From the NCBI GenBank assembly GCA_023227695.1, contig JALNVE010000002.1:13767-77766 (forward strand): a DNA stretch of 64,000 nucleotides, in the 5' to 3' direction. Positions 2,784 to 57,547 of the stretch are shown here, piece after piece. Each line of letters begins with the position of its first letter. Positions within the stretch are counted from its first letter, which is position 1. The notes under the pieces were generated by a model, which was not told where the DNA came from, ran no database searches, and saw only the letters and a program-made list of their open reading frames with translations. A program made the position numbers and the translations under genes. Source of the DNA: Paludibacteraceae bacterium (GTDB lineage Bacteria > Bacteroidota > Bacteroidia > Bacteroidales > Paludibacteraceae).

Positions 2784-3691
2784 TCTTTCATCCCCCTGCT
2801 AAAACCGTAGAAGGACCAATTTCCCGCTCCTGATGTAATGATCTGAACCTTATGTCCATATGTAACGATATCGATATCCCGATCAAGCATCTCCGTATCT
2901 ACTGCGTAAATTTCCTCTATAGGATTATTCCCTATTATTTTAGAACCCAATTCTTGGGTGTCCCTTACGCTGAAATATACCTTACCCGATTTAACCTTTC
3001 CGTTATGCCTGACACAATAGGTCCATTCATTTACCGTCAATTCCGTTGCTGACGTATATGCGTCATTCGTCACCGTCATGTTCACGGGTACTGTATTTGA
3101 CCATGAAAAATTAACCATAGTATTCCAATCAAGTCTGTAATTCCCAAGGATTACATTTTCTGCTTTCAGCGTTGAAATGCTTCCGTTCGTAAGACTTGAA
3201 AACATTACGGAATAATCATTGGTATCTATGTTCTGGTTCATTTCCACCCATAGAGTCCCGTTCACGGTGAGATTGGAAATAAATGCTTCTGGTTCGTATT
3301 GTCGGATAAAAGAAGTATCTCCCTGAAGAGTGACTTCTTTCATTCCGTTCGTTGTAACCATATAAGGTCTGGCATTGCTAACCACAAGGAATTCATAACT
3401 TCCATCTATGTTGATAAGCTTTTTAGATAATCCTTCAAATAAATATAAGAAGTTAGATGCGTTTATATATACATTACTGCCGTTATCTAGAAAAGAAATC
3501 GCTTTCAAATTCGTAACGACATTGTAATCCGCATCTAAATCATTTCTTAGTTTTCCGTTTTGAATGGGGAAGGATCTTGTCTGGGATTGACAAAAAAATG
3601 CCGTTAAAACAAAACAAAAAAACCCAAGAACAAGTTTACGGTTCTTCTTCAAAAGCCCATCCGCCTGCTGTTTTGGCAACATCATTGACAT
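2780..3691 (-). CDS. hypothetical protein with N-terminal hydrophobic signal/anchor
   Basis: The N-terminus KLVLGFFCFVLTAFFCQS is signal-like, and the remainder is Asn/Thr/Ser-rich and looks beta-rich. It could be a secreted or virion protein. No family recognised. Confidence 0.45.
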   Translation of the reverse strand: MSMMLPKQQADGLLKKNRKLVLGFFCFVLTAFFCQSQTRSFPIQNGKLRNDLDADYNVVTNLKAISFLDNGSNVYINASNFLYLFEGLSKKLINIDGSYEFLVVSNARPYMVTTNGMKEVTLQGDTSFIRQYEPEAFISNLTVNGTLWVEMNQNIDTNDYSVMFSSLTNGSISTLKAENVILGNYRLDWNTMVNFSWSNTVPVNMTVTNDAYTSATELTVNEWTYCVRHNGKVKSGKVYFSVRDTQELGSKIIGNNPIEEIYAVDTEMLDRDIDIVTYGHKVQIITSGAGNWSFYGFSRGMKE

Positions 3692-4019
3692 TGATTAATT
3701 CCGTTTCTTTAAGAACATGAGTTCCTTGTACCCCGGTTTCTACAATAGTGATAGTGGAAGTTTTCGTGATTACAGGTGCAGGAATGCTTTGGGCTGTTGA
3801 AACTCCTGTTCCATTGTCAATACAGACATGAATATTCCCATATCCGTTCCTTGACAACGTTTCTGCCACCGGGTTCGGACTAGGTATATGGAAATTTCTA
3901 TATATGTTTCCTTCTCTGATATCGGAATCTACATCCCTTTTACCAGGTTCCCAGTACAGACGACTAGGATTTGTAAGTTGACTATGATCTATTTCTCTGG
4001 TCTTGATTATTGTTTGCAT
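3636..4019 (-). CDS. hypothetical protein
   Basis: ORF track. Its 3' end overlaps the 2780-3691 ORF start region in another frame. Confidence 0.4.
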   Translation of the reverse strand: MQTIIKTREIDHSQLTNPSRLYWEPGKRDVDSDIREGNIYRNFHIPSPNPVAETLSRNGYGNIHVCIDNGTGVSTAQSIPAPVITKTSTITIVETGVQGTHVLKETELINVNDVAKTAGGWAFEEEP

Positions 4020-4066
4020 TCCAATATCCTCACTGTTTATCTAAAAACAGACAGGAATATCAAAAA

Positions 4067-4288
4067 CTATTCCGTCCCCTGTTCAAAAACACCAACACAT
4101 TGCGCATATTCTTCAAGGTATGGATACATCGCCTGTGTAAGAATTTCTATCATTCTGTCCTTTGCCGCCTGTTGAGGAACATTGACTGCATTGAAAACAT
4201 CTGCGTCTTTTAGCATTTCAGCGTATGTTTTCCATAAACTCGCGACATTTTCATCTGTTCTTTCAACCACTTCCATATTATCTTCCAT
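4067..4288 (-). CDS. hypothetical small acidic protein
   Basis: ORF track. It ends in TAG. Confidence 0.4.
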   Translation of the reverse strand: MEDNMEVVERTDENVASLWKTYAEMLKDADVFNAVNVPQQAAKDRMIEILTQAMYPYLEEYAQCVGVFEQGTE

Positions 4289-4290
4289 TT

Positions 4291-5001
4291 TTAAACTCCT
4301 TTGAACTTTTCTAAGATAAGATTCATCGCTGTTTCCTTATCAAGGACTTTACCTTTTTCAATCCATTCGTCTCCCTTCTCTTCAAGGAAAGACATTACTT
4401 CTTTGATTTTGGGTCCAGGTTTAATATCCAATATCTTCATAATTTCAAGTCCGTCTAAGATGGAATCGTTCTTCGTGACGGGTTTGATCGCTTTCACTTT
4501 TTCTATCTTTTCACGAATAGAAGGAATATTATTGCCTTTCGGTATCTTACCCTGTTCATCGGCGGCTGCCAAATCAACCACAGCATCTACAAGTTCTTCC
4601 CCTACTTCACGAATAAATTTACGTATTCCGGCTGTTCCTGCGTCATGCAGCGCGTGTGGGCGCATATGGTTTTCTACGATTTTTCTGACATTGCGAATAA
4701 CATCCGTATCAAATTTAAGTCTACGGCAAACGGCTTCTGCTATTTCTCCGCTTACCTTTTCATGGCCGTAACTGTGAATGGCACCGTCAATAAGTTCGGT
4801 TGTAGATGCTTTACCAGCATCGTGAAGAAGCGCAGCCAATTGGTTTTCAATACCAGGCTTTGAATTCTGCAAAACCATCATTGTGTGTTTTAAAGAATCG
4901 CCTTGTTTCAATACAACGACATCTGGATGACACTGTGAAGTATTAAACTTTCGACAATTTTTGCAATAACTATCTCTCAAACAATAATCTGATGGATTCA
5001 T
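4291..5001 (-). CDS. cca: CCA-adding enzyme (tRNA nucleotidyltransferase), detached C-terminal HD-domain piece
   Basis: HD-domain pattern HTMMVL...LAALLHDAGK...GHEKVSGEIA...ENHMRPH. It picks up the class II CCA enzyme sequence just after the point where the 6160-7971 ORF stops (G-x-x-Q...KF / ...HPD). Confidence 0.75.
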   Translation of the reverse strand: MNPSDYCLRDSYCKNCRKFNTSQCHPDVVVLKQGDSLKHTMMVLQNSKPGIENQLAALLHDAGKASTTELIDGAIHSYGHEKVSGEIAEAVCRRLKFDTDVIRNVRKIVENHMRPHALHDAGTAGIRKFIREVGEELVDAVVDLAAADEQGKIPKGNNIPSIREKIEKVKAIKPVTKNDSILDGLEIMKILDIKPGPKIKEVMSFLEEKGDEWIEKGKVLDKETAMNLILEKFKGV

Positions 5002-5004
5002 AAT

Positions 5005-6105
5005 CTATTCTCCAATAAATTCCAAACATCTTTTCAAAACGGTGTCTTTATCTTCCTTATAATCACTTTCCCATATAATCAAAAATTCGTATCCTTTTTC
5101 TTTGGCATTTTTTATTTTATTGCTATCGATGGTTTCGACTTCAGACGCTGTTCTGTTAGTATATACCTGTTTCCATTTCCGTTTCTGGTCTTCGGTTAAG
5201 TTTGGATTGACGTGAAATTTGTCTCCATTAAACTCGATCACCTTCTTTATATCTTCTATAACGAAATCAAAATTTCTATTAGTTCCACAAGAAAATTCAT
5301 GGTTAAGTTCTCCAAAATAAATTCTTTTATACTTGACTGATATGTTTTTATAAATTTCTTGAAAAAGAATTTGAGAAATCTTAGAATATGGAGATAAATT
5401 TCGGTTCAGCCAAATTTTTCTCTTATTTGTTTCTTTTCTGATTTTATCACAACGTTGTTGATATTTCCTTTCTCCGATTTCTTTTCCGTACTTTTTAACA
5501 AACCAATCAAGTTTGTATATTTTCGAGATATTGTTTCTCCAAGATTTATATCTTTCTAATCCCTTTTCTTGTCCTAAAATATATTGAAATCTTTCAAGTG
5601 GGGATAAACCTTTCATCTTCTGAGAAAAGATATAAGCTTTGCCTGAACTTCTATCTAAGTATTCTTTCTTTAAGATAATTTTCCCGAATTCTTTTTCATA
5701 GTCTTCTTTATTAAAGTCTTTATGTCTCCATCTTAAGTGTTGACAGAGATTAATATATGTTTTTCCACAAAGTTCACACCTAATTTTTTCGTGTTCATGA
5801 ACGTGGTGATCAATTGAAAAATTTTCCTTAATATAGTCGTCATACTTAATTTCCTTGTGACAGTTTTTGAGGTGTGTACCAAGTCCAGACATTGACTTCG
5901 TTTGTTTTCCACACAGTCTACATAAATGAAGGAATTCTTTCTTCTCTATATTCTTAATTATTATCCCATAGAATTTTAAGAAATAGTCACAATAATTGAG
6001 ATCATTTTTATGAACAGTTTTGATGTGAGTTCGTAGGACATTAAAAGAAGAATATGTTTTGCCACATAACTTACATTCAGTTGGAAAAGTTAATCCATAA
6101 TTCAT
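5005..6105 (-). CDS. free-standing homing-endonuclease-like protein (3x C2H2 zinc fingers + Vsr/DUF559-like PD-(D/E)XK domain)
   Basis: There are three C-x2-C-x12-H-x3-4-H fingers (CKLCGKTYSSFNVLRTHIKTVH and two more). The C-terminus FDFVIEDIKKVIEFNGDKFH...GYEFLIIWESDY has the Vsr-like nuclease pattern. I moved the start to ATG 6105, which follows the RBS AGAGGTGG; the track start at 6135 is a TTG. It sits between the two halves of the CCA enzyme. Confidence 0.65.
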   Translation of the reverse strand: MNYGLTFPTECKLCGKTYSSFNVLRTHIKTVHKNDLNYCDYFLKFYGIIIKNIEKKEFLHLCRLCGKQTKSMSGLGTHLKNCHKEIKYDDYIKENFSIDHHVHEHEKIRCELCGKTYINLCQHLRWRHKDFNKEDYEKEFGKIILKKEYLDRSSGKAYIFSQKMKGLSPLERFQYILGQEKGLERYKSWRNNISKIYKLDWFVKKYGKEIGERKYQQRCDKIRKETNKRKIWLNRNLSPYSKISQILFQEIYKNISVKYKRIYFGELNHEFSCGTNRNFDFVIEDIKKVIEFNGDKFHVNPNLTEDQKRKWKQVYTNRTASEVETIDSNKIKNAKEKGYEFLIIWESDYKEDKDTVLKRCLEFIGE

Positions 6106-6159
6106 AACCACCTCTGTTATGAACAGACATATCAAAAAGAATGTTAGTAGGCATCTTCC

Positions 6160-7971
6160 TCATTTAGGAACGAAATTCTTACAAACACAATTACATCCTT
6201 CCTGAAACTTTTCATTCTGTTTAACACCCTTCAAAGATTCAATCTCAGGGAAGATGTATTTTAAGAGTCCTGTTGAATCAAAGAATTTGATTGCCTTTTG
6301 AAGTTTTCCTAGCTTCATGATCTTAATAAGTTCATCTCTGATCCTTTCTTCTGAAATCGTCTGAATCCTAGAAGAATTGGCCTTGACCGCTTTCAAAACA
6401 GAAAGAGGTACAGTCCAATTGTATTTACAAATAAAGCGAACAAGACGAATCATACGAAGTGCATCTTGGTTAAGAATCTTGTTGAAATCAACGTCTGGAT
6501 GTCCTCTTAGAATCCCTTTTTGAATATCAGATTTGCTGACGCCTGTAAGGTCTATGAATTCTCCGTTACTCAAATCTTTCATCATCATATTCGTTGTGAA
6601 GTCGCGACGTTTTACATCTTCTCCCAAATCCGCAAATTCCGTACTTCTCTGTCTGCTGTTAGGATCAGGATAGCTTTCCTTCATAGTTTCGGCAAATTCA
6701 ATGACGGCACCTTTTGTCCTATATGTTTCGCCTTCGAAAATAATATCTTCCTTAAAGGTAATCTGCCAAATGGGATAATTTCCCATATTTATAGGGTTTG
6801 TCGTTTCCTTTGAAAACAAGGCATGAAGTTGTTTCGTCAGTTTTTCAGGGCCTCCTTTTATATCTATCACTATGTCTAGGTCTTTGGGAAGATTTTTAAG
6901 AATACTATCCCTAACATATCCTCCGACGGAAAAAGTATGATGCGAAAATTCAGTATAACGTAGAAAGTTTAAAAAGAATTTTTCAACCTCCTTTTCTGGC
7001 GATTTATGATTTTCGTTCATGAGTTCTTTCCCTTCGAAGCTCAGTTCCGTGACAGTTTTCAATTCTTTGCCGAGAAGAATGCGATAATAATATCCATTCT
7101 TCTTACAAAAGTCAATAGCTACTTTCGCTTTTGTTACAACTTCTTCAGACATCCATCCCTTTACTTCTTCAATAATTTTAACTTCATTCCTTATGATAAG
7201 GAAATCTGGAACATAATACGTTTTCAACCCAGAAGAATTAACATATGGGATTCTAATTCCGTGCTTCTTTGTCCACATTATTCCTTCTGATTCGTATTCT
7301 TTCATCTTATTTCTTTCATAAGACGAATCATACCATTCTCTCGTGCCATCTTTTTTGAAGAACCAACCAGTTTCCCAATTGTTTCGGTTGTGGTATTTCC
7401 CTTCTGAAAGATTGCGAGAATATGTTTCTATTCTTCTTTCTAGTCTTGTTTTGTCATCCCACATATGAAGATTAGACATAACTTCTGATCTTCTATGTTT
7501 TTCTTTTTCGGTATTACAAGCTAATTTTTGCTTGGTTCTAAATTCTTCATTTCTCATCGGATTGTTATCAGAAATTTTTTGGCGAACGTCTGGTCTTTTA
7601 GAAACATTATTATCTCCCGTTTGCATTTCTCTTTTTCGACCCTTCCAGAATAAAGAAATTTTTTCTTTGGACGTTTCTCTTTTCATAGGATTGTCAGAAA
7701 TCATTCTTTCCTTCATCCTCTTGATCTCTTCTTTCGATATTTTGTGATGACCAGAACAAAACCTTCTTCCATAAGATGTGATTTGACCACAACCACACTG
7801 ACAAACTTGATCCCATTCTTTGTTTAATCTTTTTCTTTCTTCTTCTTTGAACTTAAGATATTCTGATCGACAAATATTACAATTCTTTAGATGAGAGTTC
7901 CATCTTGAATGCCCGAATTCAATCCCACAAAAGGAAATCGATGGAAGATGGATTTTATAGACAGAAGCCAT
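6160..7971 (-). CDS. cca: in-frame fusion: PD-(D/E)XK (TnsA-like) endonuclease module + CCA-adding enzyme head/neck domain
   Basis: Residues ~1-320 have Cys/His clusters, NUMOD3-like basic repeats and YYVPDFLI...IIEEVKGW, a restriction-fold nuclease motif. Residues ~320-603 carry the Pol-beta nucleotidyltransferase head (FSVGGYVRDSIL...DLDIV) and neck (KRRDFTTNMMM). An internal ATG at 7020 with RBS GAAGGGAAAG could also produce the CCA head alone. Confidence 0.7.
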   Translation of the reverse strand: MASVYKIHLPSISFCGIEFGHSRWNSHLKNCNICRSEYLKFKEEERKRLNKEWDQVCQCGCGQITSYGRRFCSGHHKISKEEIKRMKERMISDNPMKRETSKEKISLFWKGRKREMQTGDNNVSKRPDVRQKISDNNPMRNEEFRTKQKLACNTEKEKHRRSEVMSNLHMWDDKTRLERRIETYSRNLSEGKYHNRNNWETGWFFKKDGTREWYDSSYERNKMKEYESEGIMWTKKHGIRIPYVNSSGLKTYYVPDFLIIRNEVKIIEEVKGWMSEEVVTKAKVAIDFCKKNGYYYRILLGKELKTVTELSFEGKELMNENHKSPEKEVEKFFLNFLRYTEFSHHTFSVGGYVRDSILKNLPKDLDIVIDIKGGPEKLTKQLHALFSKETTNPINMGNYPIWQITFKEDIIFEGETYRTKGAVIEFAETMKESYPDPNSRQRSTEFADLGEDVKRRDFTTNMMMKDLSNGEFIDLTGVSKSDIQKGILRGHPDVDFNKILNQDALRMIRLVRFICKYNWTVPLSVLKAVKANSSRIQTISEERIRDELIKIMKLGKLQKAIKFFDSTGLLKYIFPEIESLKGVKQNEKFQEGCNCVCKNFVPK

Positions 7972-7983
7972 ATTAATTCTCTG

Positions 7984-8009
7984 TTTTTGATAATTTAAAT
8001 ATTATCAAA
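7984..8009 (-). other. AT-rich 10-bp inverted repeat (hairpin)
   Basis: ttttgataat-ttaaat-attatcaaaa. It overlaps the end of the cca stub, just upstream of the 7971 start codon. Confidence 0.4.
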
Positions 8010-8147
8010 AGAAATAACATATCCTCCAACAGCCCATACATGACCATTAAATCTAGTCGATGGTAAAAACTCTTTTAGTAATCTTTCAACTTCCTGTTCG
8101 GCAGTAGAAGATATGATTTTTTTGGCTATTTTGTTTATATCAATCAC
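7995..8147 (-). pseudogene. remnant 5' end of the CCA-adding enzyme gene
   Basis: My translation of the minus strand gives (GTG)IDINKIAKKIISSTAEQEVERLLKEFLPSTRFNGHVWAVGGYVISFDNI*. This aligns with PEKEVEKFFLNFLRYTEFSHHTFSVGGYV in the 6160-7971 ORF, and the similarity stops exactly at GGYV. Confidence 0.6.
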
Positions 8148-9004
8148 AGAAAATACTCCAATCTTTTCTCTATTGTTTTTTTATCTATCGAATAAGCATA
8201 TTCCCTATAAATAAAGTTTGCTATTTTCCCAAAAGATTCTTTTAAAGATATTTTTAGCTTAATTGAACAAAAAACATTTTCAGGCATTTCGGCAAGTCTT
8301 TTTTCAAAAAGCTTGCGTCTTCTTTCTTCACATTGAATTTTAAACTCTATGGATCTTTTCTTCCCGATTAAAGTCTTTGTCCTTCTTTCAACAGCTTCTT
8401 TTGTTTGTTTTTTACCTTTAAGGGACTGGCTTATTTTTTTTCTAAATTCTTTCGTTTGAGTAAAAGCATAGTTCTTGTTGCTTTTAGATAAACCTAAAGA
8501 AATTTTTCTTTTAGTTTCTGTAGAAACAACTCTTCCTCTTTTTAGAGGGGCTATTTTTTGTTGGGCAACTTTCATCTTGGCTCTTGTGGATTCGCTCTTT
8601 TTTACCCCAGACATTGCCCTAGATATTTTCAGTTTAGTGTCTTCTGTCTGGTTAAATCTATGTCCCGAAATGCCTTCTCCTCCTTTAGTCATATTATATC
8701 CTTCGGGGAAAAATGTTTTCAACTCTGAAATATAGTTAATTTCTTTGTCCTGACCCTCTTTTTCAGTGTCAAAATGGTCAATTTCTTCAAATAGAAAATT
8801 TTCGAAACCATATTTCTTAATTGCTTTATGAAAAATACACCTAGAAGGATTTGTGAGATTTGATGCTCTTTTATGCGCGATCCATCTCTTCTCAATCGTT
8901 TTAGATGTTATTCCGACATATTTTTTCCCATTTACAAGATTGGTCGCTAAATAAACAAATCCACTTTTATTTTCGTTCTTCATAGCTATGCGCTCTATGT
9001 CCAT
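8144..9004 (-). CDS. GIY-YIG homing endonuclease with NUMOD3-type repeats
   Basis: GFVYLATNLVNGKKYVGIT...RWIAH...KYGFENF...GYNMTKGGEG is the GIY-YIG module. It is followed by repeated G-x-x-x-S-x-E-T-K-x-K-I-S basic motifs. Confidence 0.8.
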   Translation of the reverse strand: MDIERIAMKNENKSGFVYLATNLVNGKKYVGITSKTIEKRWIAHKRASNLTNPSRCIFHKAIKKYGFENFLFEEIDHFDTEKEGQDKEINYISELKTFFPEGYNMTKGGEGISGHRFNQTEDTKLKISRAMSGVKKSESTRAKMKVAQQKIAPLKRGRVVSTETKRKISLGLSKSNKNYAFTQTKEFRKKISQSLKGKKQTKEAVERRTKTLIGKKRSIEFKIQCEERRRKLFEKRLAEMPENVFCSIKLKISLKESFGKIANFIYREYAYSIDKKTIEKRLEYFL

Positions 9005-9456
9005 TATTGATTCTCTTCTTTCTTGTGTGGTAACGGGCTAATCTTTATTTCTGAAAGGAACAGGCATTCATAATCCCCATCCACATCACAATCTTTCTTA
9101 AGTTTTTTCAGCAAATTATTCACATCGTTCGGCCTTGCGTTCCAGTCCTGTTCTCCGTGTTCTGACTTCAACTTGATAATTCTAACAGGTGGCCTAGGCG
9201 GCATCTTCTTTTCTGTTCTCGCCGCTGGCGTTGCCGGAGGTGGAGGATATGGAATCAGAGTTTCACCGCCAGCCATATTAGCGGGAGCAGGCGGAATCTC
9301 TTTTCTGACAGGCGGCGGCACAAAACCGGCTTCATCACTGCCATCACCCTTAAATAAGTGTTGGCAAAACCCGCAGACATTCAGAAAAGTAACAAAGATA
9401 AAAATATTAAATATCCTGTTTGAGCACATTCTGCGTCTTATTTCTTTTATAGCCAT
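9004..9456 (-). CDS. membrane-anchored proline-rich protein
   Basis: It has an N-terminal hydrophobic segment (IFNIFIFVTFLNVCGF) followed by PPPVRKEIPPAPA...YPPPPATP...PPRPP. Confidence 0.45.
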   Translation of the reverse strand: MAIKEIRRRMCSNRIFNIFIFVTFLNVCGFCQHLFKGDGSDEAGFVPPPVRKEIPPAPANMAGGETLIPYPPPPATPAARTEKKMPPRPPVRIIKLKSEHGEQDWNARPNDVNNLLKKLKKDCDVDGDYECLFLSEIKISPLPHKKEENQ

Positions 9457-10427
9457 TTATGACCTTCCGGTAAGCAGTTAACGCGATAGGCAATACCGTT
9501 TTGTCTCATAGCTCTAGCCACAGGGCCTCCACGTCCCTTTTCCATATCTTCTGGACTTATCACTGTTTGAACAACCACTCCAGACCTACCAAGATCAAAT
9601 TTATCTCCGACTGTAGGCGGTTTTATACCTACTGGAATATCAAGACCATAATATTCTCCTCCTCGTCCTCCCAAGGAATCTGGAAGATATTTCATATATT
9701 GAGCCCAATAATTTAATTCCCCAGCCGCCGTTTTCAGGTCTGGGTCTGAATCGACATCACTGTCTCTATTTTCATCATTCTTCTTATATCTTACGGCATT
9801 CGGGTCTCTGTCATCTAGTCTTGGCGGACGAATTCCTTTTCCTTCACTATATTTGGGTTTGGTTATTCCATCAGCCATCAAATCCTTATCTTTCCTGTTT
9901 AGTTGTTGTCCCTGACTTGCGGTTTTGAATTTGTCCGGACTGAATTCATCTTGATTTAGAAGCCTTTCTGTTAGTTTTTCAATCATCGCTTCTGTCTTCT
10001 CATCTCTTAATTTTGTAACAAAAGGATCTTGACCCGTTGTAATCTCCGGTACTTGTTGCTGTTTGATAGACGCTTTTGTCTCCTGAACCGGCGGTTCTTC
10101 TTGTTTAATTTCTTCATTTGTTTTATCGGTATTCGGGATGTCAGTTGAATCTTCTTCTTTTTCGTCAAGCCCTAATTCTTTCAAGAGACTGTCAATGCTG
10201 TCTTCCGAAGTCGTATTTTCTTCTTCTTCTGAAGGTAATTCATCACTTTTGGTCTGCTCTATGGGTTCTGGTCCCGGCGTTTCTGTTAACGCCTGGTCTC
10301 CTGGTTTCGGCTGACCTTGTAGTTTTTCCTTAACGGAATGATAAAGACTAAGGATTTCTTCATCTGTAAGCTCCTTTGATTTCCTTACTATTGCCGCCAA
10401 AATTATCTTTCTAAAATTCTTTTTCAT
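9447..10427 (-). CDS. hypothetical acidic protein (scaffold-like by position)
   Basis: I moved the start to ATG 10427 (MKKNFRK), 2 nt after the putative portal stop. It has a long acidic low-complexity middle. The scaffold role is inferred only from its position after the portal. Confidence 0.4.
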   Translation of the reverse strand: MKKNFRKIILAAIVRKSKELTDEEILSLYHSVKEKLQGQPKPGDQALTETPGPEPIEQTKSDELPSEEEENTTSEDSIDSLLKELGLDEKEEDSTDIPNTDKTNEEIKQEEPPVQETKASIKQQQVPEITTGQDPFVTKLRDEKTEAMIEKLTERLLNQDEFSPDKFKTASQGQQLNRKDKDLMADGITKPKYSEGKGIRPPRLDDRDPNAVRYKKNDENRDSDVDSDPDLKTAAGELNYWAQYMKYLPDSLGGRGGEYYGLDIPVGIKPPTVGDKFDLGRSGVVVQTVISPEDMEKGRGGPVARAMRQNGIAYRVNCLPEGHKWL

Positions 10428-10431
10428 TTCC

Positions 10432-12588
10432 TTACAATCCTCCAGCTTTAATAATGATCTGTTCGAGAATCTGTTGTGGTGTTGCATCAGAAGGTAAATC
10501 ACGGATACAGTCATCAATAACGACTTCACGCTCGTATTTGGTTAAATCATCCCATTGCTTTTCTTTAGAAATCAGTTTTTGGATAATTTCTTCAGGAGAA
10601 GCATCTGAAGGTAATTCTTCCGCAACGGCATCAGATATGGAATTAATATCTAATTTTTCTTCTTCCGGTTCTTCCTTTGATGGTTCTTGGACCCCTGTTT
10701 CCGTTATGGATTCACCCAGTACAGGGGCTAAAGCCTGTTGAAGGAATTTATTGGACTCATCACTTGTCTGTGGTGCTTCCTGACCACCCGATTCCTGACC
10801 ACCCGCTTGTCCTCCCAAAAGAGAAGAGAAGTCTGGTATTCCACCTTCTCCATTTCCTTCTTGAGGCTGTCCTTGTATCTTAAGGTTAAGATATTTCGCG
10901 ACGATTTCAGAAAAGTTTGATTTTTCTCCGAGATTACTTGCGGCTTCACTAAGAAGATTACGAATAAGTTCATTGAAACTTGCATCCCGTACCGTGAACA
11001 AATCTTTATAAATTTTTTCTTCTATTTCAGAAACATCCAAGTTGAACAATTCATAAATGATTTCAATAGGAAGACTTCCTTTCTGATAGAGTTGAAACAA
11101 ATTTTGGAAAACTTCGTCATTATCTCGAATTGTAAGACGATTAAACCCGACTTTCGGACACCAGTATTTTTTGATCCCGTTTTCGCCGACAGTGTACCAT
11201 CCACGCGCTTCACAAATAGGAATAAACAGCTTATTTTCGAAGAAGTCCACTAGAGTTTCTCTCTCTTGAGTAAACATTGTGTTGAGAATATCCGTGGTTG
11301 TCTTGCTTCCTGCATAACTTCCTTCTCCTGTCAGCATTTCCTTTGTTATTCCCAAACCGACATATATTTCATTGTCAAGACGCTCTATTTCCGAACTGAT
11401 ATCAAGAAGTCTATCCCTGCTGTCTAGTTTTTCGATGGCATATTCATAGTTTCCTGCAATGGAATAATCCGGTTCATTATAGCTGATATCCCATTGCATA
11501 CGCAAATCTTCAAGTTCTTCTGGTGTCGCATTCGGCGCTTTTAAAAGATATTTTGGGGACATATTCCTACTTGCCAGCGCGAGTTGAGTAAACTTATAAA
11601 AATCTTTCAACTGAAGGGGAACAAGAATCCTGTCGATAATTGACGGACTCACATCCATATAAGGACTTTTGCGTCTGGAGATACATTCGCAAAAACTCCC
11701 GTTCATATGATTCCAATCTAAAGCGATATATCCGTCGCTAGTAATCGAATCTACAATTTCTTTCGGAACACTGGAAACTATTTCTTCTTCTAGACCGTTA
11801 TTATTATCACTTATGTTTCCCTGTAACATTTGGATGTAACGTCTAGGGCGGTATTCTATTCTCTTTTCTTCGCTAAAACCGATTTCAAAAACAAATACTT
11901 CTTCTGGTGGAAGCATTTGTATCCTTTTCCACAACCTTCTTTCCACATCCCATTCACAAAACAGATACGTCATTCCTATACAGTTACGTTCGTAAAGGAT
12001 GTCTCCGCTTTTCTGAAAAAGATTAAGAGTCCTTACCTGGTCTTCAAAAAGTTCCTTTACTTCGGACCTTCTTTCTTCCGGAACAAATTTGGGAATTGTC
12101 AAAGTAATTTTGGTTCTCGGCAAATCTGTCAACAGATCCAAGGCCCGCCCGACAAGGGCATCGCTCCTTGCATACCAGCGAAACCATGAAAATTTTTCCT
12201 GAAGACAGGAAGGCCATTGAATTATGCCTCCGTTCTTCGAATTCATCAATGTGATGAATGACGGGATATCATATACCCCTGATTTTATCCCCAAACCAGA
12301 CGCATAACTGTTTCTATAGCTTTCTAATACAAAGCCGGGGGTATAATTGCTAATCGTAGAAGAATACCCGTCTATCATCATTCCTGCGGTTCTTGATCTT
12401 CCTGCCAACACCGTTTTCTTGGAAAGACGATTCTCAATGTCGGAAACGTTTTGTTTTGCCTTTCTAATCATATTGTCTTCTATAATCATTTCTTCCCTTG
12501 GATGGAAATTAATAGAAGATTGGGCTTGTTTTAAACCCGCATTGATTTCAGCCATCATTTTTTTTCGAAGCCGGTTTTTCCTACTCAT
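10432..12588 (-). CDS. putative portal protein
   Basis: The 718-aa size and the gene order (TerL, small ORF, this ORF) fit a portal. I could not confirm any family motif by eye. The C-terminus is acidic and contains a tandem repeated motif. Confidence 0.55.
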   Translation of the reverse strand: MSRKNRLRKKMMAEINAGLKQAQSSINFHPREEMIIEDNMIRKAKQNVSDIENRLSKKTVLAGRSRTAGMMIDGYSSTISNYTPGFVLESYRNSYASGLGIKSGVYDIPSFITLMNSKNGGIIQWPSCLQEKFSWFRWYARSDALVGRALDLLTDLPRTKITLTIPKFVPEERRSEVKELFEDQVRTLNLFQKSGDILYERNCIGMTYLFCEWDVERRLWKRIQMLPPEEVFVFEIGFSEEKRIEYRPRRYIQMLQGNISDNNNGLEEEIVSSVPKEIVDSITSDGYIALDWNHMNGSFCECISRRKSPYMDVSPSIIDRILVPLQLKDFYKFTQLALASRNMSPKYLLKAPNATPEELEDLRMQWDISYNEPDYSIAGNYEYAIEKLDSRDRLLDISSEIERLDNEIYVGLGITKEMLTGEGSYAGSKTTTDILNTMFTQERETLVDFFENKLFIPICEARGWYTVGENGIKKYWCPKVGFNRLTIRDNDEVFQNLFQLYQKGSLPIEIIYELFNLDVSEIEEKIYKDLFTVRDASFNELIRNLLSEAASNLGEKSNFSEIVAKYLNLKIQGQPQEGNGEGGIPDFSSLLGGQAGGQESGGQEAPQTSDESNKFLQQALAPVLGESITETGVQEPSKEEPEEEKLDINSISDAVAEELPSDASPEEIIQKLISKEKQWDDLTKYEREVVIDDCIRDLPSDATPQQILEQIIIKAGGL

Positions 12589-48601: not shown

Positions 48602-50026
48602 ATGAGTGGAGGTCTCATGAAGCTTATCATAAAAAAACAGACAATTAATGTTGAAAATTTTCAGATTTTCTTTGAATTGGTTAAAGGACATAAAATAATC
48701 CCCGATCTAAAGATGCCAACAAAGGAGCTTGAATCATTCTGGGAAAACCATCTAAAAGATATTAGAATCACGAAGACTAAGCTCAGAAGATGTCTATGTG
48801 TAAATGTTTATTTTATTAGATCTCACTTGGTGGTTAAGTATTGGATAAATAAAGGATGGACAGAAGAAGAAGCAAAAGAGAAGATATCCCAATTACAAAG
48901 AAACAATTCGGAAGCATCTATTGATCATTGGGTAAAATTAGGACTAAACCGCCAAGATGCGGAAGAAAAGGTTAAGCAATCCCAATCCATAAGGGGTCTC
49001 TTTTTATCAAAAAAATTAAAAGAAAATCATCAGTTTAGAAGAGAGTTTTCTCCATCGAATATTGAATTTTGGCTAAAAAGGGGACAGGGCGAAAATGAAT
49101 CCTGCTTATCGGTGGAAGAGTTTAACAAAAGTAAGTTCAAAAATAACAAGGAAAGCTATATACGGTTATATGGAGAAGAAAAGGGTATGGCTGTTTGGGA
49201 TCGTTTTGTCAATGGCAAGTCAAATGAAAACTTAATCCGAAGGTTCGGGCCTGAAATTGGTGAGCAGAAGATAAAGAGCAGAAATAGCAGGTTGGCCGAT
49301 CATAGGGGGAGAGAAGGTTTTGTTAGACGCTATGGAGAAGAAATAGGAGAGCAGAAATATGAAGAGCTTTTAGAAAAACAAAAGAAAATGGGGGATAAGG
49401 ACTGGTACTTGAAGAAATTCGGGGATGTGGAAGGGTTGAGGTTATATACCGATAAATGTAAGTCTATAAAAGAATCACACTCTCTCGAATATATTAAGAT
49501 GAAATATGGAGAAGAAGATGGGATCAAGCGATTCTATAAATGGAGAGAGGATATGGTCGTAAAGAGGGGGAGGGCGTCTAAAGCCTCTCTTCTCTATTTT
49601 TTAAAGCTATATAAAATTTTGAGAAAGGGATACAAAATAGCCAGAAAAGATATTTTCCTAGGAATATCCGGCTCACATGAATGGTTTATTCTCAGTGATG
49701 GAAGATTCTATTTATTCGATTTTGTTATTCGTAGCAAGAAGATAATAATTGAATTCAACGGAGCACATGTTCATCCCAAGGAGGATAGGAAAGAGGAAAA
49801 TGGGTATTGGGAGAACTGGAGACACCCTTGGTCTAAAGAGGGGGCGGAAGAAGTGTTGATGAAAGAAAAACGTAAAACTAAATTAGCTAAGGATTTAGGA
49901 TACTCTATCTATACCCTGTGGAGCGATCTATCTTTCGAGGAAAATTGGGAAATTATAAACAAAATGATTCTTGAAAATTTTATCCTAAATTTACCCAACC
50001 CTATTGACAATAATCTAATCCTATGA
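48602..50026 (+). CDS. free-standing homing-endonuclease-like protein (Vsr/DUF559-like PD-(D/E)XK), paralog of 5005-6105
   Basis: The C-terminus FDFVIRSKKIIIEFNGAHVH...GYSIYTLWSD parallels FDFVIEDIKKVIEFNGDKFH...GYEFLIIWESD in the other copy. Both share internal YG-E-E-x-G-x-x-K/Y repeats. Confidence 0.6.
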   Translation: MSGGLMKLIIKKQTINVENFQIFFELVKGHKIIPDLKMPTKELESFWENHLKDIRITKTKLRRCLCVNVYFIRSHLVVKYWINKGWTEEEAKEKISQLQRNNSEASIDHWVKLGLNRQDAEEKVKQSQSIRGLFLSKKLKENHQFRREFSPSNIEFWLKRGQGENESCLSVEEFNKSKFKNNKESYIRLYGEEKGMAVWDRFVNGKSNENLIRRFGPEIGEQKIKSRNSRLADHRGREGFVRRYGEEIGEQKYEELLEKQKKMGDKDWYLKKFGDVEGLRLYTDKCKSIKESHSLEYIKMKYGEEDGIKRFYKWREDMVVKRGRASKASLLYFLKLYKILRKGYKIARKDIFLGISGSHEWFILSDGRFYLFDFVIRSKKIIIEFNGAHVHPKEDRKEENGYWENWRHPWSKEGAEEVLMKEKRKTKLAKDLGYSIYTLWSDLSFEENWEIINKMILENFILNLPNPIDNNLIL

Positions 50027-50032
50027 TATCTT
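50004..50032 (+). promoter_or_regulatory. sigma-70-type promoter (TTGACA-17-TATCTT)
   Basis: The -35 is at 50004-50009 and the -10 at 50027-50032. It spans the stop of the endonuclease ORF and lies upstream of coaB. Confidence 0.5.
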
Positions 50033-50133
50033 TTTCGCCAAACAAAGAAGTGAAATGGTTATTACTTCGATAAGGAGTTTTATACAAAGACGGATTCAAG
50101 TTTCGACAATTCATAAGAAAGGTGGTTTCATTT

Positions 50134-50853
50134 ATGAGGGTTTTAATAAGTAGCGGGGGCACGAAGATTGGGTTGGATTTGGTCAGACATATCGGCAACA
50201 TGAGCAATGGAACCCTTGGAAGCCGTCTAGGAAGAGACTTCTTAAAGATTGCCGATGAGGTTATTTTCTTCAGGGCAGAAAAATCAAAGTCTCCGATGAT
50301 CGCTGAAGTGAATTTCGCTAATTCCAACCTTGAAGCCAATACCAAGAATTTTGAACAGGCGAAAGCCAACTGGGAACAAACTGGCTATAAATATCACGAA
50401 CATACTTACAAGTCTTTTGAAGACTATCAGAGTGGTTTGGAAAATCTGATCACGCTCTATAAGCCCGATATCATTATTCTTGCCGCCGCTGTCAGTGATT
50501 ATGCACCTGAAACCGTTGTGCAGGGGAAGATTAGGTCAAAAGGAAATTTGGACATTCATCTGGTACCTCTGCCAAAGGTCATTTCAAAAGTCAGGGATTG
50601 GGCAGGAGATAAAGCTACAATTGTCGGCTTTAAGCTCCTTGTAGATGTTGATAAACAAGAACTGATTGATAGCGCCAAGAAAAGTTTGGTTGAAAATAAA
50701 CTCGATTTGGTATGTGCCAACGACTTGCGGAGCATCCTTAATGGAAACCATCTGATTCATCTTGTCGATTCTTCAGACATTGTTAAGGATATTGATGCCC
50801 ATTCTCTTGCTAGAATAATTGAATCTCATATTTCAACAAAAGGGAAACAATGA
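50134..50853 (+). CDS. coaB: phosphopantothenate-cysteine ligase (CoaB)-like protein
   Basis: VLISSGGTKIGLDLVRHIGNMSNGTLGSRLG matches the CoaB/DFP C-terminal-domain start (ITAGGT-x-E-x-ID-x-VR-x-I-x-N-x-SSG). AAAVSDY and GFKLL follow later. I moved the start to ATG 50134 behind RBS AAAGGTGG. Confidence 0.65.
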   Translation: MRVLISSGGTKIGLDLVRHIGNMSNGTLGSRLGRDFLKIADEVIFFRAEKSKSPMIAEVNFANSNLEANTKNFEQAKANWEQTGYKYHEHTYKSFEDYQSGLENLITLYKPDIIILAAAVSDYAPETVVQGKIRSKGNLDIHLVPLPKVISKVRDWAGDKATIVGFKLLVDVDKQELIDSAKKSLVENKLDLVCANDLRSILNGNHLIHLVDSSDIVKDIDAHSLARIIESHISTKGKQ

Positions 50854-56516: not shown

Positions 56517-56584
56517 CGAATCGTGTTCTTGGGTAAGGTATTTTTTATTAGATATTCCTTTTATAAGATAACAAGAGGTTACTT

Positions 56585-57547
56585 ATGAAATGGATTGTTT
56601 ATGTCGCAACAAACAAAATAAATGGAAAGAAATACGTTGGTCAAACAAAAGTCGGAATTGAAAAAAGGAAAGCCAGTCATCTTGCTGGTTCTCTATATGG
56701 TGATCCCTATGCTTTTGCAAATGCTATAAGAAAATACGGAATAAATTCATTCTTTTGGGAGATTTTAGTTGAAGATATAGGAACTCAAGAAGAACTAGAT
56801 AGAATAGAAATTGAAAAAATAAAAGAATTAAAAACATTAGTCCCTTTTGGTTACAATATATCAATGGGAGGTGGAGGGGGCGATACTTTTGAAAATAATC
56901 CAAGGAAAGAAGAGATAAGAGAGCATCTCCGTATTATTAATACAGGAAAGAAACTTTCACAAGAAACGAAACTTAAAATGAGTATTTCAAGAAAAGGAAA
57001 TAAAAATTCACTAGGAACAAAGCGTTCTGAAGAAACTAAGAGAAAGACATCTGAAACGATGAAGAAAAGATGGGAAGAGGGTTTGCCATCTCTACATGGG
57101 CACCCAATGTCGGAGACTACGAGAAAAAAGTTATCTGATCATTTTAAGGGAAGAATCGTTTCGGATGAAACGAGAAAAAAAATGTCTCTTTCTCAAAAAG
57201 GCAAGAAAGTTTCGGATGAGACAAGAGAGAAAATAAGAAATTCTAAAATTGGGAAAAAGCATTCTAAAGAATTTTGTAAAGCAACATCTGAGAGAACGAA
57301 AGGTGCTAAAAACCCATTTTGGGGAAAGAAACATACACTTGAATCTAAACAAAGGAAATTAACAGTAGAGATGGTTAAGAAGATTAAACACTCATTAATT
57401 AAAAAACCAGATGGAATGACTCTTAAATGGCTGTGTAAAACCCTATCTGAAGAATATGGGGTTGGAACGAGTGCTATTATGAAAATTAAAACGGGGGAAA
57501 CTTGGTCGGACGTTTATATAGAAGAGGAAAATTATGAAAACAAATAA
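56585..57547 (+). CDS. GIY-YIG homing endonuclease with NUMOD3-type repeats
   Basis: WIVYVATNKINGKKYVGQT...KRKASH...KYGINSFFWEIL...GYNISMGGGG is followed by repeated G-K-K-x-S-x-E-T-K/R-x-K-M-S motifs. Confidence 0.8.
   Translation: MKWIVYVATNKINGKKYVGQTKVGIEKRKASHLAGSLYGDPYAFANAIRKYGINSFFWEILVEDIGTQEELDRIEIEKIKELKTLVPFGYNISMGGGGGDTFENNPRKEEIREHLRIINTGKKLSQETKLKMSISRKGNKNSLGTKRSEETKRKTSETMKKRWEEGLPSLHGHPMSETTRKKLSDHFKGRIVSDETRKKMSLSQKGKKVSDETREKIRNSKIGKKHSKEFCKATSERTKGAKNPFWGKKHTLESKQRKLTVEMVKKIKHSLIKKPDGMTLKWLCKTLSEEYGVGTSAIMKIKTGETWSDVYIEEENYENK

What the first reader, a model, noticed from the sequence alone, without database searches (positions are those of the whole stretch)
4291..9004. 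CCA-adding enzyme locus broken up by up to four homing-endonuclease-like units, leaving a 5' stub and a split gene
In minus-strand order, the locus starts with a GIY-YIG HEG at 8144-9004. Next comes a 51-codon stub at 7995-8147, which encodes the original N-terminus of the CCA enzyme. The stub aligns with the functional copy up to the catalytic GGYV and then breaks off (AEQEVERLLKEFLPSTRFNGHVWAVGGYV vs PEKEVEKFFLNFLRYTEFSHHTFSVGGYV). Then follows a PD-(D/E)XK (TnsA-like) endonuclease module fused in frame to a fresh copy of the CCA head/neck (6160-7971). After it sits a zinc-finger/Vsr-like HEG (5005-6105), and last the detached HD domain (4291-5001). The enzyme is therefore encoded as at least two polypeptides, broken inside the conserved G-x-x-Q...K-F/W-H-P-E/D segment. 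Gene splitting by intron-less HEGs has precedent in T-even-type phages, for example split nrdA and split topoisomerase genes. Three insertion events in one tRNA-repair gene, one of them an in-frame endonuclease-enzyme fusion, is unusual.
Basis: partly seen in the sequence, partly recalled or inferred. Interest (0 to 1): 0.75.

Follow-up and report, generated by a model that had tools for sequence, protein, structure and literature searches.

The report
Phage tRNA-repair gene invaded by endonucleases
In a large phage, the gene for the enzyme that rebuilds the CCA ends of tRNAs has been invaded by three different selfish DNA-cutting genes; these left a dead 5' fragment and cut the enzyme into two proteins whose new, matching cysteine-bearing tails probably hold the halves together.

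Summary
On the minus strand of 4291-9456 lie a GIY-YIG endonuclease gene, a 50-codon cca stub, a 603-codon ORF (PD-(D/E)XK endonuclease run in frame into the CCA head/neck), a zinc-finger/Vsr-like endonuclease gene, and a separate HD-domain ORF. Syntenic relatives (L001, L003, L004, L005) carry one uninterrupted 485-494-aa cca, so the interruptions are insertions.

1. "Stub + PD-(D/E)XK endonuclease + full cca" recurs in other phage lineages, always after the GGYV codons. This endonuclease family therefore travels with its own replacement 5' end of cca. The in-frame fusion is peculiar to this phage.

2. The closest Vsr-like relatives all sit between a cca head ORF and an HD ORF, at the same HPEG|D site. 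The new tails are conserved: one Cys in the head tail (5 of 5) and C-x2-C-x7-C in the HD leader (5 of 5), with pN/pS 0.24. I infer a tail-mediated, possibly zinc-bridged, reassembly of a two-piece enzyme.

No intron or intein is present. This is a new variant of known "genes-in-pieces" arrangements. No function has been tested.

The parts
9004..9456 (-). 150-aa ORF of unknown function (hydrophobic N-terminus, Pro-rich). It is part of the ~1.3-kb block inserted between the upstream gene's stop and the cca start. It is not endonuclease-like.
   Evidence: ORF. No Pfam or PHROG hit. Absent from L001, L003 and L018, where the upstream gene abuts cca. GC 0.44, against about 0.30 for the endonuclease genes.
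8144..9004 (-). Free-standing GIY-YIG + NUMOD3 homing endonuclease gene, inserted immediately upstream of cca.
   Evidence: GIY-YIG 8.8e-10, NUMOD3 2.1e-6, phrog_314 2.4e-39. Absent at this position in L001/L003/L018. Low GC.
7995..8147 (-). Stub: the native cca codons 1-44 (8016-8147) ending in GGYV, followed by 6 foreign codons and a stop. The original ATG is now ATT, and the only start is a GTG overlapping the GIY-YIG stop.
   Evidence: Alignments with intact alleles. DNA match to L003 (71%, E=2e-11). dN/dS 0.14-0.31, against 0.06-0.11 for the rest of the gene.
7970..8020 (-). Hairpin at the 5' end of the second cassette. It spans the stub's stop codon and part of the endonuclease start codon.
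   Evidence: strand folding -13 kcal/mol, z=-2.8. The homologous position in L009 has a -20.3 kcal/mol hairpin (z=-3.9) with the SD in the loop and the AUG in the stem.
7021..7971 (-). PD-(D/E)XK ('TnsA-like fold') homing endonuclease module: N-terminal Cys/His cluster, NUMOD3-like NPM repeats, C-terminal nuclease domain. These are aa 1-317 of the 603-aa ORF.
   Evidence: phrog_15427 1.7e-10. 20 homologues are free-standing proteins of 253-320 aa that end exactly here. PD...ExK is invariant. AF2 plus Foldseek give Bax1, Hjc and TnsA.
6913..7020 (-). Cassette-borne replacement 5' end of cca (Met318 to GGYV, 36 codons). It is preceded by the SD-like GAAGGGAAAG inside the endonuclease coding sequence.
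   Evidence: Second, diverged copy of the stub sequence. The same layout occurs in L009, L015 and L172. DNA homology to L001 resumes only at 6887.
6196..6912 (-). cca head and neck (nucleotidyltransferase core and RNA-binding region) up to ...GVKQNEKFQEG.
   Evidence: PolyA_pol 8.7e-18, PolyA_pol_RNAbd 1.3e-13. 82% DNA and 87% aa identity to L001, dN/dS 0.06.
6160..6195 (-). Head 'tail': CNCVCKNFVPK plus stop, encoded by the 5' end of the Vsr-type cassette. It is absent from intact cca.
   Evidence: Conserved as x4-C-[KE]-N-F in L018, L019, L101/P0169 and P0217.
6093..6128 (-). Hairpin GUUCAUAAC-AGAGGUG-GUUAUGAAU, which places the SD in the loop and the AUG of the Vsr-like gene in the stem.
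   Evidence: The local stem is perfect, but the 81-nt window is not significant (z=-0.8). An analogous hairpin is present in L018. Such hairpins are reported for this class of inserts in PMC2677866.
5005..6105 (-). Homing endonuclease with three C2H2-type zinc fingers and a C-terminal Vsr-like nuclease. The start is the ATG at 6105; the mechanical ORF extends to a TTG at 6135.
   Evidence: Zinc-finger Pfam hits. phrog_22677 5.7e-16. The Vsr structure hits at E=0.0035 cover the segment holding D280, E291, H298, D327 and the W-E motif. 128 homologues, some carrying PF18741/PF04480.
4903..5001 (-). HD 'leader': MNPSDYCLRDSYCKNCRKFNTSQCHPDVVVLKQ, encoded by the 3' end of the Vsr-type cassette. It supplies an SD (GGAG), a start codon and a C-x2-C-x7-C motif.
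   Evidence: The motif and its 9-residue spacing to G[DS] are conserved in 5 of 5 split alleles. Tail plus leader give pN 0.20 against pS 0.85 versus L018.
4291..4902 (-). cca HD/body/tail part, from GDSLKHT to the C-terminus.
   Evidence: HD 1.4e-7, tRNA_NucTran2_2 1.9e-6. 82% aa identity to L001, dN/dS 0.088. The AF2 body has pLDDT above 85.

Best explanation
The locus is a phage class-II CCA-adding enzyme gene (cca: head, neck and HD-containing body) that three different free-standing homing endonuclease genes have colonised independently.

(1) A GIY-YIG gene, together with an unrelated 150-aa ORF, was inserted at the junction between the upstream gene and the cca start codon.

(2) A PD-(D/E)XK endonuclease cassette was inserted directly after the GGYV codons (codon 44). 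The cassette carries a stop, a regulatory hairpin, the endonuclease gene, and its own diverged copy of cca codons 1-44 with a ribosome-binding site. The host's original 5' end is left as a dead stub, and the gene is rebuilt from the cassette's copy. In this phage the endonuclease's stop codon is missing, so it reads in frame into cca. The head may be made both as a 603-aa fusion and from the internal Met318 (inferred).

(3) A zinc-finger/Vsr-like endonuclease cassette was inserted in the codons for HPEG|D, at the boundary to the HD domain. It supplies an 11-residue tail and a stop for the upstream half, and an SD, a start and a 33-residue leader for the downstream half. The enzyme is therefore made as two polypeptides.

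I infer that the two halves reassemble non-covalently through the cassette-encoded tail and leader. Their four invariant cysteines (1 + 3) are best explained as an intermolecular Zn(Cys)4 site.

Shown: the anatomy, the insertion points, the uninterrupted alleles, the recurrence of both cassettes at the same sites in other lineages, and purifying selection on the halves and the tails.

Inferred: homing activity, expression of the pieces, reassembly, and zinc binding.
For: Uninterrupted syntenic alleles:
- L001 494 aa, L003 485 aa, L005 492 aa, and L004.
- DNA breakpoints against L001 are at window 9451, 6887/6210 and 4904.

Nuclease domains.

Cassette 2:
- Homologues are stand-alone proteins of 253-320 aa.
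- P0004 and P0006 sit immediately upstream of a full cca and are preceded by 51-59-aa stubs ending AVGGYV. L172 has the same layout.
- 10 of the 12 closest viral loci have cca directly downstream, and the other 2 have it directly adjacent in divergent orientation.
- The stub resembles endonuclease-free alleles, whereas the downstream copy is diverged.

Cassette 3:
- The three closest homologues (58, 51 and 42% identity) all lie between a head ORF of 298-303 aa and an HD ORF of 232-238 aa.
- Further split alleles are L101, P0148, P0217, L026, L033 and L102.
- Tails: x4-C-[KE]-N-F in 5 of 5. Leaders: C-x2-C-x7-C-x9-G[DS] in 5 of 5. pN/pS is 0.24 with synonymous sites saturated.

Evidence that the halves are functional:
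- Both are intact, with dN/dS 0.06 and 0.088 against L001.
- GGYVRD/DLD, RRDFT and LLHDAGK are retained, as read directly from the sequence.

Patchy distribution of both cassettes on the cca tree.

The same arrangement is found in independent assemblies.

Precedent that insertion-derived tails are essential for a split phage enzyme: Aeh1 NrdA-a/NrdA-b (PMC3045599). An intein-less gene fractured by a Vsr-like ORF, with extra residues at the break, is reported in PMC2677866.
Against: - No experiment has been done. Expression, cleavage specificity, reassembly and CCA addition are all untested.
- In this phage the rebuilt head lacks about 12 N-terminal residues present in relatives. It has F in place of the His of the (Y/H)H(Q/P)EG motif that the other split alleles keep. 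It is also fused to an endonuclease. Any of these could impair it.
- AF2 gives the leader alone pLDDT 36-55.
- A second set of split alleles (L026, L033, L102) has tails without cysteines, so zinc cannot be a general requirement.
- Pfam matches of the tails to zinc-finger families are all below threshold.
- Low dN/dS against L001 integrates time before the insertions, so it does not by itself show selection since the split.
Confidence: 0.78

Rival explanations
1. The gene is being destroyed. The endonuclease insertions inactivated cca, and the head and HD ORFs are non-functional remnants that have not yet decayed.
For: A dead stub is present. The rebuilt head is N-terminally shortened, fused to an endonuclease, and has lost the His of the HPEG motif. 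Closely related phages differ in which inserts they carry, so the events may be recent.
Against: Neither half has a frameshift or internal stop. dN/dS is 0.06-0.09. The split arrangement persists in at least six diverged lineages in which the endonuclease is only 42-58% identical, and the tails are under purifying selection. Catalytic motifs are retained. Ribosome-binding sites and tight gene spacing are preserved.
Confidence: 0.12
2. The two halves work without any tail-mediated clasp. Either the head/neck alone adds CCA and the HD protein acts separately as a phosphohydrolase, or the halves re-associate through the native domain interface. On this view the tail and leader are only by-products that supply stop and start signals.
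For: The split lies at a domain boundary. Type-2 split alleles have unrelated, Cys-free tails. The leader is predicted to be disordered on its own. No significant match to a known zinc-binding family was found.
Against: Within type-1 alleles, four cysteines and their spacing are invariant across sequences whose other tail and leader positions vary. The tails show pN/pS 0.24. In the one system that has been tested, comparable tails were essential (PMC3045599).
Confidence: 0.3
3. The pieces are rejoined by splicing: a group I or II intron at the RNA level, or a split intein at the protein level. Split inteins accompany the same Vsr-like endonuclease family in fractured DNA polymerase genes.
For: Family relatives in Aeromonas phage Aes517 and Tenacibaculum phage PTm1 sit between split-intein halves of DNA polymerase. 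The head tail begins with Cys directly after the conserved EG.
Against: A permissive Rfam scan of 3500-10000 found nothing. The extensions are only 11 and 33 residues, with no intein blocks and no HN. The residue after the leader is G/D, not C/S/T. Stop codons and separate starts are present.
Confidence: 0.02
4. The two-piece gene and the stub are ancestral features or assembly artefacts unrelated to the endonuclease ORFs.
For: None found.
Against: Four syntenic relatives have a one-piece gene. Wherever the flanking DNA or gene calls could be read, the split co-occurs with the Vsr-like ORF and the stub with the PD-(D/E)XK ORF. Two independent assemblies reproduce the locus at 99.95-99.96% identity.
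Confidence: 0.02

Closest known systems
Aeromonas phage Aeh1 nrdA split by the mobE endonuclease gene, with insertion-derived tails (Crona et al. 2011, PMC3045599; the original Friedrich et al. 2007 report is cited from memory)
   Same: A free-standing homing endonuclease gene sits inside a conserved enzyme gene. Two polypeptides result. The C- and N-terminal tails created by the insertion are absent from intact homologues, and in that system they were needed for function.
   Different: The enzyme (CCA-adding, not RNR) and the endonuclease family (Vsr-like, not HNH) both differ. Here the tails carry an invariant 1+3 Cys pattern and are conserved across several lineages, and nothing has been tested. 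The same gene also carries a second cassette of another kind.
'Fractured genes' with Vsr-like homing endonucleases (Dassa et al. 2009, PMC2677866); Aes517 and PTm1 DNA polymerase loci
   Same: The same endonuclease family sits between two halves of a phage gene. ORFs are tightly packed or overlapping, and there is a hairpin upstream of the endonuclease start. That paper also describes one intein-less case (SbcD-like) with extra residues at the fracture.
   Different: No split intein is present, so the halves are not religated. The DNA-binding part here is three C2H2-type fingers. The target, the cca HPEG|D site, was not reported there.
Allomyces macrogynus mitochondrial atp6 hybrid gene (Paquin et al. 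1994, as described in PMC4019555)
   Same: An endonuclease-bearing insert brings a foreign copy of one end of the host gene. That copy is fused in frame and takes over, displacing the native end.
   Different: There the 3' end is replaced, in a mitochondrion. Here the 5' end is replaced, in a phage, with its own start signals. The displaced native piece remains as an upstream stub, and the arrangement recurs in at least four lineages.
T4 mobA / gene 60 cassette splitting the topoisomerase gene (from memory; related preprint 10.1101/2022.08.31.505936 listed)
   Same: A homing endonuclease travels as a cassette with extra sequence that neutralises the damage of inserting into an essential gene.
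   Different: The T4 solution is a 50-nt translational bypass. Here the solutions are a duplicate 5' coding segment and interaction tails.
Intermolecular zinc sites such as the CD4/CD8-Lck zinc clasp and the Rad50 zinc hook (from memory)
   Same: Two chains each contribute cysteines (here 1 + 3) to one tetrahedral site that holds them together.
   Different: The resemblance is purely one of motif. No homology, structure or metal analysis is available here.

Membership tests
GIY-YIG free-standing homing endonucleases (8144-9004) | GIY-YIG catalytic domain plus a NUMOD-type DNA-binding region | tested here: met
   GIY-YIG 39.2 bits (cut-off 22.6), NUMOD3 28.0 bits (cut-off 20.4), phrog_314 2.4e-39
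GIY-YIG free-standing homing endonucleases (8144-9004) | Presence/absence polymorphism next to a conserved gene | tested here: met
   Absent in L001, L003 and L018, where the upstream gene abuts cca
GIY-YIG free-standing homing endonucleases (8144-9004) | Site-specific cleavage of the endonuclease-free allele | not testable with these tools
   Needs a cleavage assay
Vsr-like homing endonuclease family of fractured genes (5005-6105) | Vsr-type catalytic core (Asp, His, Asp, plus the family's extra Glu) | tested here: met
   The profile hits 1odg/1vsr/1cw0 at E=0.0035 over DFV...G..H...D...WE. D280, E291, H298 and D327 are invariant. Homologues carry PF18741/PF04480.
Vsr-like homing endonuclease family of fractured genes (5005-6105) | Lies between the two halves of a gene that is continuous elsewhere | tested here: met
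Vsr-like homing endonuclease family of fractured genes (5005-6105) | Flanked by split-intein halves (the usual but not universal arrangement) | tested here: not met
   Extensions of 11 and 33 aa, with no intein motifs. This corresponds to the intein-less variant noted in PMC2677866.
PD-(D/E)XK nucleases / TnsA N-terminal domain (7021-7971) | PD...(D/E)xK motif in a restriction-endonuclease-like fold | tested here: met
   P255-D256 and E269-x-K271 are invariant in 20 sequences. AF2 pLDDT exceeds 90 in this domain. Foldseek top hits are Bax1, Hjc and TnsA, with prob about 1.0.
PD-(D/E)XK nucleases / TnsA N-terminal domain (7021-7971) | Membership of Pfam Tn7_TnsA-like_N at the curated threshold, and a Tn7-type context | tested here: not met
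   24.2 bits, below the 26.5 cut-off. No transposase partners are present. It shares the fold but is not a TnsA.
Class II CCA-adding enzyme with HD domain | Head (PolyA_pol), RNA-binding neck/body, HD and tRNA_NucTran2_2 regions with their catalytic motifs | tested here: met
   All four Pfam families score above their cut-offs across the two ORFs. 83% identity to the intact L001 protein.
Class II CCA-adding enzyme with HD domain | A single polypeptide | tested here: not met
   Stop at 6160-6162 and a new start at 5001
Class II CCA-adding enzyme with HD domain | CCA-adding (and HD phosphohydrolase) activity | not testable with these tools
   Needs an enzyme assay of the co-expressed halves
Split enzyme reassembled by insertion-derived tails (Aeh1 NrdA type) | Tails at the break that are absent from intact homologues | tested here: met
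   None of about 20 intact relatives carries them.
Split enzyme reassembled by insertion-derived tails (Aeh1 NrdA type) | Tails conserved under selection | tested here: met
   5 of 5 tails and 5 of 5 leaders keep the motif. pN 0.20 against pS 0.85.
Split enzyme reassembled by insertion-derived tails (Aeh1 NrdA type) | Tails required for assembly or activity | not testable with these tools
The leader alone is low-confidence.
Group I / group II intron | Match to the intron covariance models | tested here: not met
   No Rfam match up to E=1 in 3500-10000

The most novel reading that the evidence does not exclude
The Vsr-type cassette carries, at its two ends, the coding sequence for a split Cys4 zinc-binding module: one Cys in the tail it adds to the upstream half, and C-x2-C-x7-C in the leader it adds to the downstream half. 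A selfish endonuclease would then bring its own metal-bridged 'staple' that re-joins the protein it cuts, a non-covalent counterpart of the split inteins used by its relatives. In parallel, a PD-(D/E)XK endonuclease family has specialised on cca by travelling with a spare 5' end of the gene.
Probability: 0.35. Interest if true: 0.7.

Novelty: new variant of a known kind. Interest (0 to 1): 0.55.

Why it matters
This one gene shows two different ways in which selfish endonuclease genes can sit inside a coding sequence, with neither an intron nor an intein, and still leave the host gene usable. One is to carry a spare copy of the gene's 5' end. The other is to carry tails that let the two halves find each other.

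Both solutions recur at the same sites in several uncultivated phage lineages, so they are evolved strategies rather than accidents.

If the 1+3 cysteine tails do bind zinc, they would be a small, portable, naturally evolved tag pair for reassembling split proteins. They would also be a second, independent example of the 'tails' principle, which has so far been shown for only one enzyme.

The locus also marks phage tRNA-repair genes as targets of homing endonucleases: cca here, and RtcB elsewhere in the window with an endonuclease gene beside it. I found no paper describing this.

Tried and rejected
- **Group I/II intron:** the permissive Rfam scan was empty.
- **Split intein:** the extensions are too short and lack the motifs.
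- **Assembly artefact:** rejected, because there are two near-identical independent assemblies.
- **Close DNA relatives in GenBank phages:** none. The best protein hits are about 37% identical, in huge phages.
- **AF2 of the HD ORF alone:** the leader is low-confidence, so the result is uninformative.
- **Sequence-profile search of the PD-(D/E)XK family against PDB:** not significant. The fold was settled by AF2 plus Foldseek instead.
- **Pfam scan of the concatenated tails:** only sub-threshold zinc-finger hits.
- **Relatives of the GIY-YIG protein in viral contigs:** none. Weak relatives among the fetched loci show no link to cca.
- **Promoter/terminator scan of the locus:** chance level, and no minus-strand terminator.
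- **Co-conversion tract next to cassette 2:** considered as the explanation for the diverged segment between the cassette-borne GGYV (6913) and the point where DNA homology to L001 resumes (6887). The N-terminal region is poorly conserved among all alleles, so this cannot be decided.
- **L076/L142:** the 59% Vsr-like hit is a remnant next to an unrelated HD-CCA gene on the other strand, not a split allele.
- **P0217's contig:** it ends before the partner ORFs.

Full report
**What is in the sequence**

On the minus strand, read 5' to 3', the ORFs are as follows:
- a 360-aa ORF (9447-10529);
- a 150-aa ORF (9004-9456);
- a 286-aa ORF (8144-9004);
- a 50-aa ORF (7995-8147, with a GTG start overlapping the preceding stop);
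- a 603-aa ORF (6160-7971);
- a 366-aa ORF from the ATG at 6105 (5005-6105; the mechanical ORF extends to a TTG at 6135);
- a 236-aa ORF (4291-5001).

Pfam and PHROG searches give:
- GIY-YIG plus NUMOD3 for the 286-aa ORF.
- PolyA_pol head plus PolyA_pol_RNAbd in residues 347-579 of the 603-aa ORF. Its N-terminal half has a sub-threshold Tn7_TnsA-like_N match and a PHROG 'endonuclease' match.
- C2H2-type zinc fingers in the 366-aa ORF.
- HD plus tRNA_NucTran2_2 in the 236-aa ORF.

The three endonuclease genes have GC of about 0.28-0.34, against 0.38-0.44 around them. A permissive Rfam scan found no intron or other RNA family.

**The uninterrupted state**

GenBank phages hold no close DNA relative. 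The best protein matches are about 37% identical, in huge phages.

IMG/VR holds syntenic relatives. L001 (a 304-kb contig), L003, L004 and L005 all encode a single cca of 485-494 aa between the same neighbours.

DNA alignment to L001 is collinear except for three blocks that are present only in the window.
- Block 1 (about 9450-8148) starts right after the upstream gene's last codons (...HKWL) and ends at the cca start. It holds the 150-aa ORF and the GIY-YIG gene. The original ATG now reads ATT.
- Block 2 starts after GGATATGTT|A, the GGYV codons.
- Block 3 (4903-6195, 1,293 nt) replaces nothing. It sits in GAAGG|TGAT, the codons for E-G|D of ...HHSEGDTFKHT, and the pentamer GAAGG/CAAGG is present on both sides.

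The alignment shows instead that 'HPDV' belongs to the inserted leader.

**The nuclease domains**

For the 366-aa ORF:
- tblastn finds genes annotated 'VSR endonuclease' in Aeromonas phages Aes508/Aes517 and Tenacibaculum phage PTm1. There they lie between split-intein-bearing halves of DNA polymerase.
- A profile of eight family members hits the Vsr crystal structures at E=0.0035, over the segment that holds the catalytic Asp, His and Asp and the W-E motif.
- 128 homologues were found. Some carry PF18741/PF04480, and some are named Vsr endonuclease by their source.

For the N-terminal 317 residues of the 603-aa ORF:
- Twenty homologues share an invariant P-D-F ... E-x-K-G-W.
- An AF2 model (mean pLDDT 85, above 90 in the C-terminal domain) has as its best PDB matches the Bax1 nuclease, archaeal Hjc resolvases and TnsA.

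So it is a PD-(D/E)XK nuclease with a TnsA-like fold. It is not a TnsA, because the Pfam score is below the cut-off and there is no transposon context.

**Cassette 2 is a recurrent 'endonuclease plus spare 5' end' unit**

All homologues of the PD-(D/E)XK module are stand-alone proteins of 253-320 aa that end at ...ELS[FY]xG, which is exactly where Met318 of the 603-aa ORF follows. Only the identical protein from an NCBI MAG record has the cca fusion.

The homologues P0004 (six contigs) and P0006 (three contigs) sit immediately upstream of a complete 493-495-aa cca and overlap its start by 16 nt in another frame. Each is preceded by a 51-59-aa ORF that is the cca N-terminus up to AVGGYV, followed by a few foreign codons and a stop. 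L172 has the same three parts, and L173, L175 and L177 have what look like decayed stubs.

Among the 12 closest viral loci, 10 have cca directly downstream and 2 have it directly adjacent in divergent orientation.

In L009 and L015 the stub resembles the endonuclease-free allele L005 much more than the downstream copy does.

The simplest reading is as follows. The element inserts after codon 44, inside the codons for the conserved GGxVRD motif. It carries a stop, a hairpin that covers its ribosome-binding site and start (L009: -20.3 kcal/mol, z=-3.9; window: z=-2.8), the endonuclease gene, and a diverged duplicate of codons 1-44 with a Shine-Dalgarno sequence embedded in the end of the endonuclease gene. 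The host's own 5' end becomes the stub and provides the left-hand homology for the next homing event. That last step is my inference.

In the window the stop of the endonuclease gene is missing, and the rebuilt cca starts about 12 codons later than in L009. This gives one 603-codon frame. The SD-like GAAGGGAAAG, 8 nt before Met318, is still there, so initiation at Met318 is plausible.

**Cassette 3 splits the enzyme, and the split is conserved**

The three closest homologues of the zinc-finger/Vsr-like protein (58, 51 and 42% identity) each lie between a cca head ORF (298-303 aa) and an HD ORF (232-238 aa), with overlapping or abutting reading frames.

More split alleles turned up in the metagenome scan and the protein searches: L101/P0169, P0148, P0217, L026, L033 and L102. 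All are broken after ...H(P/Q/A)EG.

None of about 20 intact relatives has extra residues at this point.

In 'type 1' alleles:
- The upstream ORF gains x4-C-[KE]-N-F-[EV]-[PN]-x(1-2)-stop: window CNCVCKNFVPK, L018 CDCRCKNFEPI, L019 AIITCENFEPK, L101 SSWTCKNFEPR, P0217 SIYNCKNFENKI.
- The downstream ORF gains a leader with C-x2-C-[KR]-[KW]-[FY]-x-T-x2-C, followed by exactly nine residues before G[DS]..HT. This holds for the window, L018/P0143, P0144, P0148 and L019.
- Between the window and L018, the tail plus leader have pN 0.20 against pS 0.85. The peptides themselves are therefore under selection.

A 'type 2' group (L026, L033, L102) has A-x-V-R-K-I tails without cysteine.

**Are the halves functional?**

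Both ORFs are intact. They keep GGYVRD...DLD, RRDFT and LLHDAGK, and they show dN/dS 0.06 (head) and 0.088 (HD) against L001. The stub is more relaxed, at 0.14-0.31.

The AF2 model of the HD ORF is confident for the body (pLDDT above 85) and not for the leader (36-55). A complex could not be modelled.

On a cca tree both cassettes are patchy. The window's nearest relative L001 has none. L018 (Vsr type only) groups with L003 (none). L009 and L015 (PD-(D/E)XK type only) group with L005 (none). This fits repeated gain, or loss through recombination with empty alleles.

The whole arrangement is reproduced with 4 and 2 mismatches in ENA and Logan assemblies.

**Comparison with what is known**

Homing endonuclease genes that split phage genes are established. 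Examples are nrdA of Aeh1, the gp43 polymerase in Aeromonas phages, and the 'fractured genes' of Dassa et al. That paper defines the Vsr-like family, notes hairpins before the endonuclease start, and reports one intein-less SbcD-like case with extra residues at the fracture (PMC2677866).

Crona et al. showed for Aeh1 NrdA that tails created by the insertion are essential for activity (PMC3045599).

An endonuclease insert that brings a foreign gene end is known from Allomyces atp6.

I found no paper linking homing endonucleases to CCA-adding enzymes, and no phage report of the stub-plus-spare-5'-end layout. The library is limited to open-access papers, so absence there is weak evidence.

**Verdict**

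- there are three units, not four;
- one unit is upstream of the gene rather than inside it;
- the break is at HPEG|D.

The added value lies in two points. Both intragenic inserts are site-specific cassettes that recur in other lineages and carry their own repair kit. And the type-1 kit has an invariant 1+3 cysteine pattern that suggests a zinc-bridged reassembly.

This is a new variant of a known kind, of moderate interest, and it is readily testable.

Noticed in passing
window 9004-9456 (-): 150-aa ORF with a hydrophobic N-terminus and a Pro-rich middle, and no family match. It is absent from L001, L003 and L018. It sits with the GIY-YIG gene in the block inserted before cca, but its GC is higher (0.44).
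   Followed up: partly
window 55089-57547 (+): An RtcB tRNA ligase gene (2.7e-69) is followed directly by a second GIY-YIG + NUMOD3 endonuclease gene (56585-57547), 35% identical to the one at 8144-9004. This is another tRNA-repair gene with an endonuclease neighbour.
   Followed up: partly
window 48602-51947 (+): A second Vsr-like domain (49244-49975) lies inside a 474-aa ORF. It is followed by separate DFP (CoaB-like) and Flavoprotein + Peptidase_M23 ORFs, the reverse of the usual CoaC-CoaB order.
   Followed up: no
L024, L031, L109, L110, L112, L114, L115, L117-L120, L123, L129: Many members of the same Vsr-like clade sit immediately upstream of small stand-alone HD-domain genes whose WHPEG motif is intact. 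This suggests that the clade targets this motif in several gene families.
   Followed up: partly
P0171, P0177, P0179, P0170, P0180: Close cca relatives are fused to other modules: an AAA_33 kinase-like C-terminus, a C-terminal HNH_3 endonuclease, an N-terminal Topoisom_I domain, or an extra N-terminal HD domain.
   Followed up: no
L001 7697-7938: In L001 the gene upstream of cca stops after 245 aa, but DNA homologous to the C-terminal ~100 residues of the window's 360-aa ORF continues to just before cca. This may be a frameshift, a pseudogene or a sequencing error.
   Followed up: partly
window 5800-6105 (-): The DNA-binding part of the Vsr-like endonuclease is three C-x2-C-x12-H-x3-4-H (C2H2-type) fingers. 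More distant family members have one finger or NUMOD3 repeats instead.
   Followed up: partly
L076 / L142, 817-3030 (-): A 737-aa protein with the HD domain N-terminal to the CCA head (reverse domain order) lies next to a remnant of a Vsr-like gene.
   Followed up: no
P0001, P0022, P0142 source names: Identical proteins are filed in NCBI under MAGs named 'Candidatus Omnitrophica bacterium' and 'Paludibacteraceae bacterium'. The locus is clearly phage (portal- and terminase-like neighbours, with a 304-kb viral relative), so these bins probably contain phage contigs.
   Followed up: no
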